Positions 1,236 to 14,238 of a stretch of DNA of 64,000 bases are shown in pieces; the first letter of the stretch is position 1, and each line of letters begins with the position of its first letter. The notes under the pieces are model-generated. The model was given only the letters and a program-made list of their open reading frames with translations. It made no database searches and was not told where the DNA came from. This DNA comes from Escherichia phage vB_EcoM-fFiEco06: the sequence record NC_054914.1; one strand, given 5' to 3'. A program made the translations under genes and the position numbers.

Positions 1236-1880
1236 TTGATTATGGGGCTTCGGCCCCTATTCTCGAGGAAACAAGTGATTATTTCTAAGTTTGTTACAAT
1301 AAAACCAAGAAATCATTCAAAAATGTGGTCGACAATTCTGGGATATAAAGTATCATATCATGATACAGTATCTGTTCCAATAGAATTAATGCCAAAGAAT
1401 AGTAATAAAATAGTTGACGCTAAATGTGATTTGTGTGGTATTAAATTTAGTAGAAGCATTCAGCTTTTAAATAGAACACCCACGCATGCATGTAGAAAAT
1501 GTAGCATTAAACAAGTTGCTATTAAAAATTCGGAAGTTCAATCTGGAATAAGTAGACCATGGCAAAGAGGTGATAAACATCCTCGATGGACTGGTAAAAG
1601 AAAAGAGTTTGCATTATATGCTAGTAGAGTTCATTCTATAACTAAGTCAGCTAAAATAAGAAAAATCTGGTCAAAATGGCCAAATGCTGATAAAATAGGA
1701 GTGTGTGGTGTAGAAGGTGCTTACCAGCTTGATCATAAGGTATCTATCAAATATGGATTTGATAATTTAATTCCGCCGGAAATTATAGCAAGCGTAAAAA
1801 ATTTAGAAATAATCACTTGGGAATCTAACCGAGAAAAGTCAAAAAGAAATAGCGTAGATCTTTGGGATTTACTAGAATGA
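1236..1880 (+). CDS. HNH-family endonuclease-like protein with N-terminal CxxC...CxxC zinc ribbon; probable free-standing homing endonuclease; start codon uncertain (TTG 1236, ATG 1242, GTG 1272 or ATG 1323)
   Basis: C-terminal motif YQLDHKVSIKYGFDNL...ITWESNREKSKRN (D-H...N...N) and CDLCG...CRKC seen in translation; ORF fills the gene 18/19 gap. Confidence 0.55.
   Translation: MIMGLRPLFSRKQVIISKFVTIKPRNHSKMWSTILGYKVSYHDTVSVPIELMPKNSNKIVDAKCDLCGIKFSRSIQLLNRTPTHACRKCSIKQVAIKNSEVQSGISRPWQRGDKHPRWTGKRKEFALYASRVHSITKSAKIRKIWSKWPNADKIGVCGVEGAYQLDHKVSIKYGFDNLIPPEIIASVKNLEIITWESNREKSKRNSVDLWDLLE
1244..1257 (+). terminator. GGGGC-UUCG-GCCCC tetraloop hairpin immediately after gene 18 stop
   Basis: Perfect 5-bp GC stem with UUCG loop read directly; weak U-tract. 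Confidence 0.6.
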
Positions 1881-5469: not shown

Positions 5470-6279
5470 ATGCTTAAAGAACAACTGATTGCCGAAGCGC
5501 AGAAAATTGATGCTTCCGTTGCTCTTGATAGTATTTTCGAATCAGTTAATATTTCTCCGGAAGCAAAAGAAACTTTCGGCACTGTATTCGAAGCTACCGT
5601 CAAGCAGCACGCCGTTAAATTAGCTGAATCTCATATCGCTAAAATTGCTGAAAAAGCAGAAGAAGAAGTAGAAAAAAATAAAGAAGAAGCAGAAGAAAAA
5701 GCTGAGAAGAAAATCGCTGAGCAAGCTTCTAAATTCCTTGACCATCTTGCAAAAGAATGGCTCACTGAAAATAAATTAGCAGTAGATAAAGGTATCAAAG
5801 CCGAACTGTTTGAATCCATGCTTGGTGGATTGAAAGAGCTCTTCGTTGAACACAACGTTGTTGTTCCAGAAGAATCAGTTGATGTTGTAGCTGAAATGGA
5901 AGAAGAACTGCAAGAACATAAAGAAGAATCAGCTCGTCTGTTCGAAGAACTCAATAAGCGTGACGCATATATCAATTATGTGCAGCGTGAAGTGGCATTG
6001 AGCGAAAGTACTAAAGATCTGACTGAGTCTCAAAAAGAAAAAGTCTCTGCTCTGGTCGAAGGTATGGATTATTCAGATGCATTCTCAAGTAAATTGAGTG
6101 CAATCGTAGAAATGGTGAAGAAATCTAATAAAGATGAAAGCACTATTACTGAGAGTATAAATACTCCTGATACTGAAGCAGCCGGACTGAATTTCGTCAC
6201 TGAAGCTGTAGAAGATAAATCTGCACAAGGTGCAGAAGATATTGTAAGTGTATATGCGAAAGTCGCATCTCGTTTCTAA
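5470..6279 (+). CDS. 22: prohead core scaffold protein gp22
   Basis: 269 aa, Glu/Lys-rich coiled-coil-like protein; position upstream of 23. Confidence 0.85.
   Translation: MLKEQLIAEAQKIDASVALDSIFESVNISPEAKETFGTVFEATVKQHAVKLAESHIAKIAEKAEEEVEKNKEEAEEKAEKKIAEQASKFLDHLAKEWLTENKLAVDKGIKAELFESMLGGLKELFVEHNVVVPEESVDVVAEMEEELQEHKEESARLFEELNKRDAYINYVQREVALSESTKDLTESQKEKVSALVEGMDYSDAFSSKLSAIVEMVKKSNKDESTITESINTPDTEAAGLNFVTEAVEDKSAQGAEDIVSVYAKVASRF
6156..6163 (+). promoter_or_regulatory. late promoter TATAAATA inside 3' end of gene 22, candidate promoter for gene 23
   Basis: Exact TATAAATA ~135 nt upstream of gene 23 ATG. Confidence 0.55.
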
Positions 6280-6297: not shown

Positions 6298-7863
6298 ATG
6301 ACTATCAAAACTAAAGCTGAACTTTTGAACAAATGGAAGCCATTACTGGAAGGTGAAGGTTTACCGGAAATTGCTAATAGCAAACAAGCGATTATCGCTA
6401 AAATCTTTGAAAACCAGGAAAAAGATTTCCAGACAGCTCCGGAATATAAAGACGAAAAAATTGCTCAGGCATTCGGTTCTTTCTTAACAGAAGCTGAAAT
6501 CGGTGGTGACCACGGTTACAATGCTACCAACATCGCTGCAGGTCAGACTTCTGGAGCAGTAACTCAGATTGGCCCAGCTGTTATGGGTATGGTACGTCGT
6601 GCTATTCCTAACCTGATTGCTTTCGATATTTGTGGTGTTCAGCCAATGAACAGCCCGACTGGCCAGGTATTCGCACTGCGCGCAGTATATGGTAAAGACC
6701 CAATCGCTTCCGGTGCTAAAGAAGCATTCCACCCAATGTATGGTCCAGATGCAATGTTCTCTGGTCAGGGTGCTGCTAAGAAATTCGCTGCTTTGAAAGC
6801 AAGTGATACTCTTGAAGTCGGAACTATTTACACTCACTTCTTCCAGGAAACTGGTACAGTATATCTGCAAGCTACAGCAGCTAAACAAATTGATTCAGGC
6901 GCATCTGACGCAGACAAATTAGATGCTGAAATTAAGAAACAAATGGAAGCTGGTGTACTGGTAGAAATCGCTGAAGGTATGGCTACTTCTATCGCTGAAC
7001 TTCAAGAAGGTTTTAACGGTTCTACCGATAACCCGTGGAATGAAATGGGCTTCCGTATCGATAAACAAGTTATCGAAGCTAAATCTCGTCAGCTGAAAGC
7101 TGCTTACTCTATTGAATTAGCACAAGACCTCCGCGCTGTTCACGGTATGGATGCTGATGCTGAACTGTCTGGTATTCTGGCTACAGAAATTATGCTGGAA
7201 ATCAACCGTGAAGTTGTTGATTGGATTAACTACTCCGCTCAGGTTGGTAAATCTGGTATGACCCTGACTCCGGGTTCTAAAGCTGGTGTATTTGACTTCC
7301 AGGACCCAATCGATATTCGTGGTGCTCGCTGGGCAGGTGAATCCTTTAAAGCTCTGTTGTTCCAGATTGACAAAGAAGCAGTTGAAATTGCTCGTCAGAC
7401 TGGTCGCGGCGAAGGTAACTTCATTATCGCTTCCCGTAACGTAGTTAACGTTCTGGCTTCAGTTGATACCGGCATTTCTTATGCTGCACAAGGTCTGGCT
7501 ACTGGCTTTAACACTGATACTACCAAGTCAGTATTTGCTGGTGTTCTGGGTGGTAAATACCGTGTATATATCGACCAGTATGCTAAACAGGATTATTTCA
7601 CCGTAGGTTATAAAGGTCCGAACGAAATGGATGCTGGTATTTACTATGCTCCATATGTAGCTCTGACTCCGCTGCGTGGTTCTGATCCGAAGAACTTCCA
7701 ACCGGTAATGGGATTCAAAACTCGTTACGGTATCGGTATCAACCCATTTGCAGAATCCGCTGCTCAGGCTCCGGCTTCTCGCATCCAGAGCGGTATGCCT
7801 TCTATTCTGAATAGCCTTGGTAAAAACGCTTACTTTAGACGTGTATATGTTAAAGGTATCTAA
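6298..7863 (+). CDS. 23: major capsid protein gp23 (521 aa precursor)
   Basis: Sequence recognisable as T4 gp23 (MTIKTKAELLNKWKPLLEGEG...); length identical. Confidence 0.97.
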   Translation: MTIKTKAELLNKWKPLLEGEGLPEIANSKQAIIAKIFENQEKDFQTAPEYKDEKIAQAFGSFLTEAEIGGDHGYNATNIAAGQTSGAVTQIGPAVMGMVRRAIPNLIAFDICGVQPMNSPTGQVFALRAVYGKDPIASGAKEAFHPMYGPDAMFSGQGAAKKFAALKASDTLEVGTIYTHFFQETGTVYLQATAAKQIDSGASDADKLDAEIKKQMEAGVLVEIAEGMATSIAELQEGFNGSTDNPWNEMGFRIDKQVIEAKSRQLKAAYSIELAQDLRAVHGMDADAELSGILATEIMLEINREVVDWINYSAQVGKSGMTLTPGSKAGVFDFQDPIDIRGARWAGESFKALLFQIDKEAVEIARQTGRGEGNFIIASRNVVNVLASVDTGISYAAQGLATGFNTDTTKSVFAGVLGGKYRVYIDQYAKQDYFTVGYKGPNEMDAGIYYAPYVALTPLRGSDPKNFQPVMGFKTRYGIGINPFAESAAQAPASRIQSGMPSILNSLGKNAYFRRVYVKGI

Positions 7864-7877
7864 TCTTTGACGATTTA

Positions 7878-7895
7878 AGGGACCTTCGGGTCCCT
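7878..7895 (+). terminator. AGGGACC-UUCG-GGUCCCU hairpin with T-rich tail after gene 23
   Basis: 7-bp stem, UUCG loop, followed by TTAGTTGTTTTT. Confidence 0.75.
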
Positions 7896-7911
7896 TTAGT
7901 TGTTTTTATGG

Positions 7912-7919
7912 TATAAATA
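7912..7919 (+). promoter_or_regulatory. late promoter TATAAATA for gene 24
   Basis: Exact match ~28 nt upstream of ATG 7947. Confidence 0.7.
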
Positions 7920-7946
7920 AATCATATAAACCAAAAGGAAAGCGCA

Positions 7947-12697: not shown

Positions 12698-12726
12698 TAG
12701 ATATATTTATTACATGGTATTTAGAC

Positions 12727-14238
12727 ATGACTGACATTAAAGTACATTTTTATGATTTTAGTCACGTGAGAATTGATTGTGAAGAAAGTACATTTCATGA
12801 ACTCCGTGATTTCTTTAGCTTTGAAGCTGATGGGTATCGTTTTAATCCGAAGTACAAATATGGCCACTGGGATGGACGAATTCGTCTTTTAGATTATAAT
12901 CGCCTTCTTCCATTCGGTTTAGTCGGGCAAATTAAAAAGTTCTGCGATAACTTTGGCTATAAAGCCTGGATTGACCCACAGATTAACGAAAAAGAAGAAT
13001 TATCAAGAAAAGATTTTGATGAATGGCTTTCTAAATTAGAAATCTATTCAGGAAATAAAAGAATTGAACCGCATTGGTATCAAAAAGATGCAGTGTTCGA
13101 AGGATTAGTTAATCGTCGTAGAATTCTTAATCTTCCAACATCCGCAGGTAAATCTTTAATTCAAGCTTTGCTTGCTCGGTATTATTTGGAAAATTATGAA
13201 GGCAAAATTCTTATTATTGTTCCAACAACTGCTCTGACAACTCAGATGGCTGATGACTTTGTTGACTATCGTTTATTCAGTCATGCAATGATAAAGAAAA
13301 TCGGTGGTGGAGCATCAAAAGATGATAAATATAAAAATGATGCACCGGTCGTTGTTGGTACATGGCAAACTGTAGTAAAACAACCGAAAGAATGGTTCTC
13401 ACAGTTTGGAATGATGATGAATGATGAATGTCATCTTGCTACAGGAAAAAGTATTTCATCTATCATATCAGGTTTAAATAACTGCATGTTCAAATTCGGT
13501 TTGTCTGGTTCATTACGTGATGGCAAAGCCAATATCATGCAGTATGTTGGAATGTTCGGTGAAATATTTAAGCCAGTAACGACTTCTAAGTTAATGGAAG
13601 ATGGACAAGTAACTGAGCTAAAAATTAATAGTATTTTTCTTCGCTATCCCGATGAGTTCACTACTAAATTAAAGGGAAAAACTTATCAAGAAGAAATAAA
13701 AATTATTACGGGGCTTAGTAAAAGAAATAAATGGATCGCTAAATTGGCTATTAAGCTTGCACAAAAAGATGAAAACGCTTTTGTCATGTTTAAACATGTA
13801 TCGCATGGTAAAGCTATTTTCGATTTAATTAAAAATGAATACGATAAAGTTTATTACGTATCAGGGGAAGTTGATACCGAAACCCGCAATATAATGAAAA
13901 CCTTAGCTGAAAATGGTAAAGGAATAATTATAGTAGCTAGTTATGGTGTATTTTCTACTGGTATTTCAGTTAAAAATCTGCATCACGTTGTTTTAGCGCA
14001 CGGTGTTAAATCAAAAATCATTGTATTACAAACAATCGGTCGTGTATTACGTAAGCATGGTTCTAAGACAATAGCAACCGTCTGGGACCTCATAGATGAT
14101 TGTGGCGTTAAGCCAAAATCTGCTAATACGAAAAAGAAATACGTTCATTTGAACTATCTTTTAAAACACGGCATTGATCGTATTCAGCGCTACGCAGATG
14201 AAAAATTTAATTACGTAATGAAAACAGTTAATTTATAA
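12727..14238 (+). CDS. uvsW: UvsW SF2 DNA/RNA helicase (503 aa)
   Basis: Walker A LPTSAGKS, DEAH-like MNDECH; length matches T4 UvsW. Confidence 0.9.
   Translation: MTDIKVHFYDFSHVRIDCEESTFHELRDFFSFEADGYRFNPKYKYGHWDGRIRLLDYNRLLPFGLVGQIKKFCDNFGYKAWIDPQINEKEELSRKDFDEWLSKLEIYSGNKRIEPHWYQKDAVFEGLVNRRRILNLPTSAGKSLIQALLARYYLENYEGKILIIVPTTALTTQMADDFVDYRLFSHAMIKKIGGGASKDDKYKNDAPVVVGTWQTVVKQPKEWFSQFGMMMNDECHLATGKSISSIISGLNNCMFKFGLSGSLRDGKANIMQYVGMFGEIFKPVTTSKLMEDGQVTELKINSIFLRYPDEFTTKLKGKTYQEEIKIITGLSKRNKWIAKLAIKLAQKDENAFVMFKHVSHGKAIFDLIKNEYDKVYYVSGEVDTETRNIMKTLAENGKGIIIVASYGVFSTGISVKNLHHVVLAHGVKSKIIVLQTIGRVLRKHGSKTIATVWDLIDDCGVKPKSANTKKKYVHLNYLLKHGIDRIQRYADEKFNYVMKTVNL

What the first reader, a model, noticed from the sequence alone, without database searches (positions are those of the whole stretch)
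6574..6663. Gol-like region of gp23 (potential trigger for Lit-type abortive infection)
A short internal peptide of T4 gp23 is known to activate the e14 Lit protease, which cleaves EF-Tu. The corresponding segment here (about ...VRRAIPNLIAFDICGVQPMNSPTGQVFALRA...) appears conserved, so this phage would likely remain Lit-sensitive. The boundaries are recalled approximately.
Basis: established knowledge. Interest (0 to 1): 0.3.

Follow-up and report, generated by a model that had tools for sequence, protein, structure and literature searches.

The report
T4 Gol peptide in capsid gene
This stretch encodes residues 93-122 of the major capsid protein of a T4-like coliphage, identical to the T4 "Gol" peptide that sets off the E. 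coli K-12 Lit suicide protease, so it is a correct but already well-known feature.

Summary
Observation confirmed. Window 6298..7863 (+) is gene 23, the 521-aa major capsid protein of a Tequatrovirus. It is 96% identical to T4 gp23, and residues 1-135 are 100% identical. The stated coordinates 6574..6663 are in frame and encode P93-G122 (PAVMGMVRRAIPNLIAFDICGVQPMNSPTG). The quoted peptide V99-A129 lies at 6592..6684. Within the segment the DNA differs from T4 by one synonymous base (P116, CCG to CCA).

Because the segment and the whole N-terminal quarter equal wild-type (gol+) T4, every gol escape position must carry the wild-type residue. The prediction of T4-like Lit sensitivity is therefore well supported, but it was not tested experimentally here.

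Caveats:
- Lit restriction of T4 is reported only when Lit is over-produced.
- e14 lit occurs in only 283 of 5,426 complete E. coli genomes.
- The segment is conserved at about 2-3 times the protein average, yet it is not the most conserved part of gp23.
- The primary Gol papers could not be opened, so the exact published peptide boundaries and gol allele positions remain unchecked.

Side lead: a GenBank "T2 ymfE mutant" carries I111T inside this segment. It is the only substitution in 50 kb. The window has wild-type I111.

Verdict: already known, low interest.

The parts
6298..7863 (+). Gene 23: major capsid protein precursor gp23, 521 aa plus stop codon
   Evidence: ORF list. Pfam Gp23 PF07068, E 4e-121. 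96% identical to T4 gp23 over the full length. 100% DNA identity to the major capsid gene of Escherichia phage UPWr_E4. Solved T4 capsid structures 6uzc, 7vs5 and 5vf3 match at E=0.
6574..6663 (+). Codons P93-G122, the coordinates given in the finding. This is the Gol-type segment PAVMGMVRRAIPNLIAFDICGVQPMNSPTG, 30/30 identical to T4.
   Evidence: An identical peptide occurs in 609 phage records.
6592..6684 (+).
   Evidence: Coordinates computed. Identical to T4.
6628..6630 (+). Codon I111 (ATT), wild type here. This site is changed to Thr (ACT) in GenBank PV958097.1 'Escherichia phage T2 ymfE mutant'.
   Evidence: Position 111 is Ile in 110 and Val in 11 of 121 aligned sequences, never Thr.
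6643..6645 (+). Codon P116, CCA here against CCG in T4 and T2. It is the only nucleotide difference from T4 inside the segment and is synonymous.
6490..6495 (+). Codons E65|A66, the gp21 prohead-protease maturation site. The Gol segment lies downstream and so stays in mature gp23*.
   Evidence: Mature gp23* chains in 5vf3 and 8t9r start at query residue 66. Residues G92-G132 map to positions 27-67 of the mature chain.
6156..6163 (+). TATAAATA, the T4 late-promoter consensus, 135 nt upstream of the gene 23 start and inside the 3' end of gene 22. It fits late synthesis of the trigger.
   Evidence: 18 matches in the window against 7.95 expected, and 0 of 100 shuffles reach 18. Promoter function is inferred from the motif only.

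Best explanation
[quoted passage not shown] The segment is identical to the Gol determinant of wild-type T4. Its primary job is structural. By residue numbering it covers the end of the extended N-arm of mature gp23*, including Met98 of the portal-anchoring cluster, and the chain that runs on towards the first I-domain linker. Its secondary, host-imposed role follows the published model. When gp23 is made in bulk late in infection, this segment of unassembled gp23 binds domains II-III of EF-Tu, preferentially the GDP form. The EF-Tu/Gol complex becomes the substrate of Lit, the zinc metalloprotease of the cryptic prophage e14. Lit cuts EF-Tu between Gly59 and Ile60, translation stops, and the infection aborts. 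Shown here: the identity of the gene, the frame, the coordinates, complete identity to gol+ T4, above-average conservation, and absence of RNA structure. Inferred: that this phage triggers Lit just as T4 does.
For: Gene identity and synteny. Genes 20-67-68-21-22-23-24 are colinear with T4 at 94-98% DNA identity, and the neighbouring proteins are 94-100% identical. Segment identity: 30/30 for the segment and 135/135 for the N-terminal quarter. Mechanism from the literature: PMC3014915 section 37, PMC13581612, PMC9712102, PMC13228613, PMC10286901 and the bioRxiv preprint 10.1101/2022.08.27.505566. Structural placement: Fang et al. 2022, PMC9546572, gives aa 66-105 as the N-terminal region/N-arm, Met98 in the portal-anchoring cluster, and aa 132-160 as an I-domain linker. 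Conservation: across 119 homologue clusters plus T4 (69-99% identity to the window protein), the segment has mean identity 0.894 against 0.775 for the whole protein. It accumulates 0.1-0.67 of the substitutions expected at the whole-protein rate. Independent pointer: a T2 mutant named after ymfE, the e14 gene next to lit, has I111T in this segment as its only substitution in 49.6 kb. Late-promoter motif upstream of the gene.
Against: No experiment was done, so Lit sensitivity of this particular phage is inferred. T4 restriction is reported only when Gol and Lit are over-produced. A plain K-12 host may therefore plate this phage normally. e14 lit was found by megablast in only 283 of 5,426 complete E. 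coli genomes, all at least 99% identical, and the sampled rows are mostly K-12 laboratory derivatives. Lit is thus unlikely to be a major selective force on this phage in nature. The exact 29-residue peptide and the gol alleles could not be checked against the primary papers. The segment is not the most conserved part of gp23 in my sample: rank 103 of 492 for 30-aa windows, and the best 20-aa core, 97-116, ranks 15 of 502. This differs from the statement relayed in the review.
Confidence: 0.85

Rival explanations
1. The segment is identical to T4 Gol, but this phage is not Lit-sensitive. Differences elsewhere would prevent the trigger from acting: the 19 substitutions in gp23, 18 of them in the surface I-domain region 136-220, or accessory genes that T4 lacks.
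For: gp23 differs from T4 at 19 positions, all outside residues 1-135. The window carries genes T4 lacks, such as ORF 1236..1880. No phenotype data exist for this phage.
Against: A short Gol region alone defines Gol function, and the first quarter of gp23 suffices for stable EF-Tu binding. Both are 100% identical here. No anti-Lit factor is described in the papers read. T2, whose I-domain region resembles the window's, yields an e14-linked mutant altered in this very segment. That implies T2-type gp23 is sensed.
Confidence: 0.08
2. The e14 function that senses this segment is not Lit alone. The neighbouring uncharacterised gene ymfE takes part, or is a separate sensor, so 'Lit-type trigger' describes the biology incompletely.
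For: GenBank PV958097.1 is titled 'T2 ymfE mutant' and its host is K-12 BW25113. Over 49,640 aligned bases it differs from RefSeq T2 by one substitution, gp23 I111T. ymfE (b1138) lies next to lit (b1139) and is transcribed divergently from it. A 2026 bioRxiv preprint on H-NS silencing of immunity loci contains 'ymfE' 11 times, 'e14' 6 times, 'gp23' 6 times and 'EF-Tu' 0 times.
Against: The preprint could not be opened, so the meaning of 'ymfE mutant' is a guess. YmfE matches no Pfam or PADLOC family. Purified Lit plus synthetic Gol peptide are reported to suffice for EF-Tu cleavage in vitro (Georgiou et al. 1998, cited; the in-vitro detail is from my own knowledge). Only 30% of the T2 mutant genome was compared.
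Confidence: 0.12
3. The gol determinant acts as a cis-acting DNA or RNA site, as first proposed in 1982, rather than as a peptide.
For: [quoted passage not shown]
Against: Later work established a peptide that binds EF-Tu. RNA of 6560..6690 folds no better than shuffles: z = 0.00, and 101 of 200 shuffles fold at least as well. No Rfam family matches. The only base change relative to T4 is synonymous.
Confidence: 0.01

Closest known systems
T4 gp23 Gol peptide with the e14 Lit protease (Peptidase_U49), causing abortive infection through EF-Tu cleavage
   Same: Same gene, same position in the protein, and 30/30 identical residues. The whole N-terminal 135 residues are identical, and there is the same late-gene context.
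   Different: Nothing differs at the protein level in the segment. There is one synonymous base change (P116). The rest of gp23 differs at 19 residues, 18 of them in the I-domain region. The phenotype is untested for this phage.
CapRel(SJ46) toxin-antitoxin sensing of the SECphi27 major capsid protein Gp57
   Same: An abortive-infection system triggered by newly made major capsid protein. Escape occurs by point mutations in the capsid gene.
   Different: CapRel binds the capsid protein directly. Lit recognises a capsid-peptide/EF-Tu complex and destroys EF-Tu. The capsid families and effectors are unrelated.
Avs7 STAND NTPase sensing of Drexlerviridae major capsid proteins with EF-Tu as a structural subunit
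   Same: Major capsid protein and host EF-Tu occur together in the activated immune complex.
   Different: Avs7 wraps the folded HK97-fold protein and uses EF-Tu structurally. Lit reads a short motif and cleaves EF-Tu.
PifA (F plasmid) exclusion of T7, escaped by mutations in capsid gene 10
   Same: A classical abortive system whose escape mutations map to the major capsid protein.
   Different: Different phage family and different effector. No EF-Tu involvement is described.

Membership tests
T4-type major capsid protein gp23 (Pfam PF07068; HK97 fold with inserted I domain) | Significant full-length match to the Gp23 family profile | tested here: met
   PF07068, 405.4 bits against a cut-off of 24.4, residues 88-517
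T4-type major capsid protein gp23 (Pfam PF07068; HK97 fold with inserted I domain) | Colinear, gap-free similarity to T4 gp23 and to solved T4 capsid chains | tested here: met
   502/521 identical with 0 gaps. 6uzc, 7vs5 and 5vf3 match at E=0 to 1e-290.
T4-type major capsid protein gp23 (Pfam PF07068; HK97 fold with inserted I domain) | Head-gene synteny 20-67-68-21-22-23-24 | tested here: met
   Colinear blastn blocks at 94-98% identity. Neighbouring proteins are 93.8-100% identical to their T4 counterparts.
T4-type major capsid protein gp23 (Pfam PF07068; HK97 fold with inserted I domain) | Maturation cleavage after Glu65 by the gp21 protease | tested here: met
   The sequence around E65|A66 is identical to T4. 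Deposited mature chains begin at residue 66. Cleavage itself was not observed.
Gol determinant (Lit-activating segment of T4 gp23) | A translated segment about one quarter into gene 23, in the gp23 reading frame | tested here: met
   6574..6663 is in frame with the ORF that starts at 6298 and covers codons 93-122 of 521. The review places Gol in the first quarter of gp23.
Gol determinant (Lit-activating segment of T4 gp23) | Wild-type T4 residues across the 29-residue Gol region, including the 13 important residues of its 20-residue core | tested here: met
   Residues 1-135 are all identical to T4 NC_000866. The requirement is therefore met whichever residues are meant. The list of 13 residues (Copeland and Kleanthous 2005) could not be read.
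Gol determinant (Lit-activating segment of T4 gp23) | No substitution at gol escape positions | tested here: met
   Met by identity to gol+ T4. The one candidate escape site recoverable here, I111 (T2 'ymfE mutant' I111T), is wild type: ATT at 6628..6630.
Gol determinant (Lit-activating segment of T4 gp23) | Binds domains II-III of EF-Tu | not testable with these tools
   Biochemical property. No solved Gol/EF-Tu/Lit complex was found by sequence in the PDB.
Gol determinant (Lit-activating segment of T4 gp23) | Promotes Lit cleavage of EF-Tu at Gly59-Ile60 and restricts growth on Lit-overproducing hosts | not testable with these tools
   Needs plating and EF-Tu cleavage assays
Gol determinant (Lit-activating segment of T4 gp23) | Made late in infection | tested here: inconclusive
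   A late-promoter consensus TATAAATA lies at 6156..6163, upstream of gene 23. This is motif evidence only.
cis-acting gol nucleic-acid site (historical model) | Stable or conserved RNA/DNA structure in the segment | tested here: not met
   z-score 0.00 against 200 shuffles. No Rfam match.

The most novel reading that the evidence does not exclude
The segment is a general EF-Tu docking motif needed for gp23 biogenesis, as Bingham et al. proposed, and is kept in all Straboviridae. It is recognisable down to cyanophages at 50-63% identity. In K-12 it would be read by an H-NS-silenced e14 module that includes YmfE as well as Lit. This phage, and the roughly 600 sequenced phages with the identical peptide, would then be restricted by de-silenced K-12 and would escape by changes such as I111T.
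Probability: 0.12. Interest if true: 0.45.

Novelty: already known. Interest (0 to 1): 0.1.

Why it matters
It matters little beyond annotation. The finding correctly marks a textbook abortive-infection trigger in a T4-like phage. Practically, it predicts that this phage, like T4, would be aborted by E. coli K-12 derivatives that over-express Lit. That is relevant when choosing propagation or assay hosts for therapeutic Tequatrovirus phages. The survey adds three points. The identical peptide is in 609 sequenced phages. The segment evolves 2-3 times more slowly than gp23 as a whole but is not its most conserved part. Finally, e14 lit is confined to about 5% of complete E. coli genomes, most of the sampled ones being K-12 laboratory strains. 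The trigger is therefore probably kept by capsid-assembly constraints rather than shaped by Lit.

Tried and rejected
1. Primary Gol/Lit papers could not be opened, so the exact peptide boundaries and gol allele positions rest on a review and on logic. The papers tried were Georgiou 1998 (DOI and PMC19665), Yu and Snyder 1994 (PMC43037), Kao 1987 (PMC211924), Copeland and Kleanthous 2005, Bingham 2000, the Miller 2003 T4 genome review, and a guessed id for Champness and Snyder 1984.
2. The 2026 H-NS/ymfE preprint could not be opened under three forms of its id. Only word counts were obtained.
3. The AlphaFold2 model of gp23 from a 44-sequence alignment was poor: mean pLDDT 43.8, pTM 0.26, and about 27-31 over the segment. 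It was discarded, and no fold search was run. Structural placement was taken from the published cryo-EM description instead.
4. A PDB sequence search with the 41-aa region found only T4 capsid entries and no Gol/EF-Tu/Lit complex.
5. The RNA-structure and Rfam checks for a cis-acting site were negative.
6. The antisense ORF 6484..6888 (134 aa) lies wholly inside gene 23 on the opposite strand. I treated it as a chance ORF, and there is no evidence that it is a gene.
7. The claim relayed in the review that Gol is the most conserved region of gp23 was not reproduced in my 121-sequence alignment.

Full report
**What is at the coordinates.** The window carries an ORF at 6298..7863 on the + strand that encodes 521 aa. 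It matches the Pfam family Gp23 (PF07068) at 405 bits against a cut-off of 24.4. It is 502/521 identical to T4 gp23 with no gaps. At the DNA level it is 100% identical to the major capsid gene of Escherichia phage UPWr_E4, and at least 99% identical to that of 62 phage records, mostly Escherichia phages.

The stated coordinates 6574..6663 are in frame. They encode P93-G122, PAVMGMVRRAIPNLIAFDICGVQPMNSPTG.

**Comparison with T4.** Residues 1-135 are identical to T4. In those 405 nt the only differences are two synonymous changes, G86 GGC->GGA and P116 CCG->CCA. Only the second lies in the segment. The 19 amino-acid differences from T4 all lie downstream: 18 between residues 136 and 220, and one at residue 405. 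By the published domain description, residues 136-220 fall in the I-domain linker and the surface I domain.

The surrounding genes 20, 67, 68, 21, 22, 23 and 24 are colinear with T4 at 94-98% DNA identity. Their proteins are 93.8-100% identical. A T4 late-promoter consensus TATAAATA sits at 6156..6163, 135 nt upstream of the start codon. This fits the late synthesis of gp23.

**What the segment is known to do.** The review by Uzan and Miller (PMC3014915, section 37) summarises the system as follows.
- Translation of the gol region of T4 gene 23 in cells carrying the cryptic prophage e14 activates the latent protease Lit.
- A 29-residue region defines Gol function, and 13 residues in a 20-residue core matter most.
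- About 100 residues from the first quarter of gp23 bind EF-Tu more stably.
- Gol binds domains II-III of EF-Tu, preferring the GDP form. Lit, an HEXXH zinc protease, then cuts between Gly59 and Ile60.

Recent papers restate this. They class Lit among the systems that read the capsid protein through a short motif. One of them notes that activation is seen when both Gol and Lit are over-produced.

I confirmed that K-12 lit (b1139) is in e14 and belongs to PADLOC 'Lit' and Pfam Peptidase_U49.

The primary papers were not available. I therefore could not read the exact peptide or the gol alleles. This does not affect the conclusion. The window protein equals gol+ T4 over the entire N-terminal quarter, so every gol position must carry the wild-type residue.

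**Where the segment sits in the capsid protein.** Mature gp23* starts at residue 66, so the segment stays in the virion protein, at positions 28-57 of the mature chain.

Fang et al. 2022 describe residues 66-105 as the N-terminal region. It is disordered in the unexpanded head and becomes an extended N-arm after expansion. Met98 joins a portal-anchoring methionine/histidine cluster, and residues 132-160 form an I-domain linker. A review adds a 25-residue N-fist at the very N terminus of gp23*.

By residue numbering, the segment is therefore the distal N-arm plus the chain leading to the first I-domain linker. This placement is my inference from the numbering. My own AlphaFold2 model was too poor to use, with mean pLDDT 43.8.

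**Conservation.** One protein search returned 120 cluster representatives at 69-99% identity. My alignment held 121 sequences: 119 of those, plus T4 and the window protein.
- The segment has mean identity 0.894 to the window sequence, against 0.775 for the whole protein.
- It ranks 103rd of 492 among 30-aa windows.
- The best 20-aa stretch inside it, residues 97-116, scores 0.941 and ranks 15th of 502.
- N118 and S119 are freely variable.
- In every identity band the segment has 0.1-0.67 of the substitutions expected at the whole-protein rate.

The segment is thus clearly constrained. It is not the single most conserved part of gp23, as the review reports Copeland and Kleanthous to have noted. 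Stretches around residues 261-300 and 441-480 are more conserved.

A tblastn of the 30-aa peptide against 50,697 phage records found it identical in 609. It is recognisable in 2,033, down to cyanophages at 50-63% identity.

**How relevant Lit is to the phage.** By megablast, lit occurs in 283 of 5,426 complete E. coli genomes. All copies are at least 99% identical, always chromosomal, and most of the sampled rows are K-12-type laboratory strains. More diverged Lit homologues would be missed by this search. Conservation of the segment is therefore best explained by capsid and assembly constraints, possibly including the proposed EF-Tu association. Lit exploits a feature the phage cannot easily change.

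**A side lead.** The tblastn rows included 'Escherichia phage T2 ymfE mutant' (PV958097.1, host K-12 BW25113) at 29/30 identity.
- The difference is I111T (ATT->ACT).
- It is the only base change in the first 666 nt of gene 23 relative to seven other T2-type records: six T2 genomes and phage SV76.
- It is also the only substitution across 49,640 aligned bases against RefSeq T2. That stretch contains all head genes and differs otherwise by two single-base indels.
- Thr is never seen at position 111 in the 121 aligned sequences.
- ymfE is the uncharacterised gene beside lit in e14, transcribed divergently from it. It matches no Pfam or PADLOC family.
- A September 2026 preprint on H-NS silencing of immunity loci mentions ymfE, e14 and gp23 but could not be opened.

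The window has the wild-type Ile at this site. I record this as a lead. It fits the segment being the sensed determinant in T2-type gp23 as well. It also raises the possibility that YmfE takes part in the sensing.

**Rivals.** The original cis-acting-site model has no support. RNA of 6560..6690 folds no better than shuffled sequence (z = 0.00), and no Rfam family matches. The later literature requires a peptide. The antisense ORF 6484..6888 is treated as a chance ORF inside a highly expressed gene. The idea that changes elsewhere make this phage Lit-insensitive cannot be excluded without plating. It is unlikely, because the short region alone defines Gol function.

**Verdict.** The feature is already known: it is the T4 Gol determinant, present unchanged in a close T4 relative. 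Interest is low. The only mildly new elements are the quantitative conservation picture, the narrow distribution of e14 lit, and the T2 I111T lead.

Noticed in passing
L003:25-690 and L006:1-50000 (PV958097.1). The corresponding window codon is 6628..6630.: GenBank 'Escherichia phage T2 ymfE mutant' carries gp23 I111T inside the Gol segment. It is the only substitution in 49.6 kb against RefSeq T2. ymfE is the e14 gene next to lit. A 2026 preprint on H-NS silencing mentions ymfE, e14 and gp23 but could not be opened.
   Followed up: partly
window 7864..7946: The gap between genes 23 and 24 is only 83 bp. T4 has the homing-endonuclease gene segD here (about 790 bp, absent from the window). The spacer holds a GC-rich hairpin with a TTCG loop (about 7879..7894) followed by T's, and then a late-promoter motif TATAAATA at 7912..7919.
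   Followed up: partly
window 12714..12732: The T4 homing-endonuclease gene segE (T4 locus 12046..12680 of L001) is also absent from the window. The flanking blocks join within about 20 bp.
   Followed up: no
window 1236..1880 (+): A 214-aa ORF lies between genes 18 and 19 and has no counterpart in T4. It matches phrog_5104 (unknown function, E 5e-82) and, weakly, a homing-endonuclease PHROG (E 8e-4). It has no Pfam match. It is probably another mobile endonuclease-type insertion.
   Followed up: partly
window 6703..6960 (gp23 residues 136-221): Eighteen of the 19 amino-acid differences from T4 gp23 cluster here, in the I-domain linker and surface I-domain region. The sequence resembles T2's version more than T4's.
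   Followed up: no
L002:3696-4589 (E. coli K-12 lit): e14 lit is detectable by megablast in only 283 of 5,426 complete E. coli genomes. All copies are at least 99% identical, and the sampled rows are mostly K-12 laboratory derivatives.
   Followed up: partly
window, whole: The T4 late-promoter consensus TATAAATA occurs 18 times against 7.95 expected, and 0 of 100 shuffles reach 18. Copies lie upstream of genes 20, 22, 23 and 24.
   Followed up: no
window 6298..7863 (gp23 alignment): In 121 aligned gp23 sequences the Gol segment is well conserved but is not the most conserved region. Residues about 261-300 and 441-480 score higher. This differs from the statement relayed in the 2010 review.
   Followed up: yes
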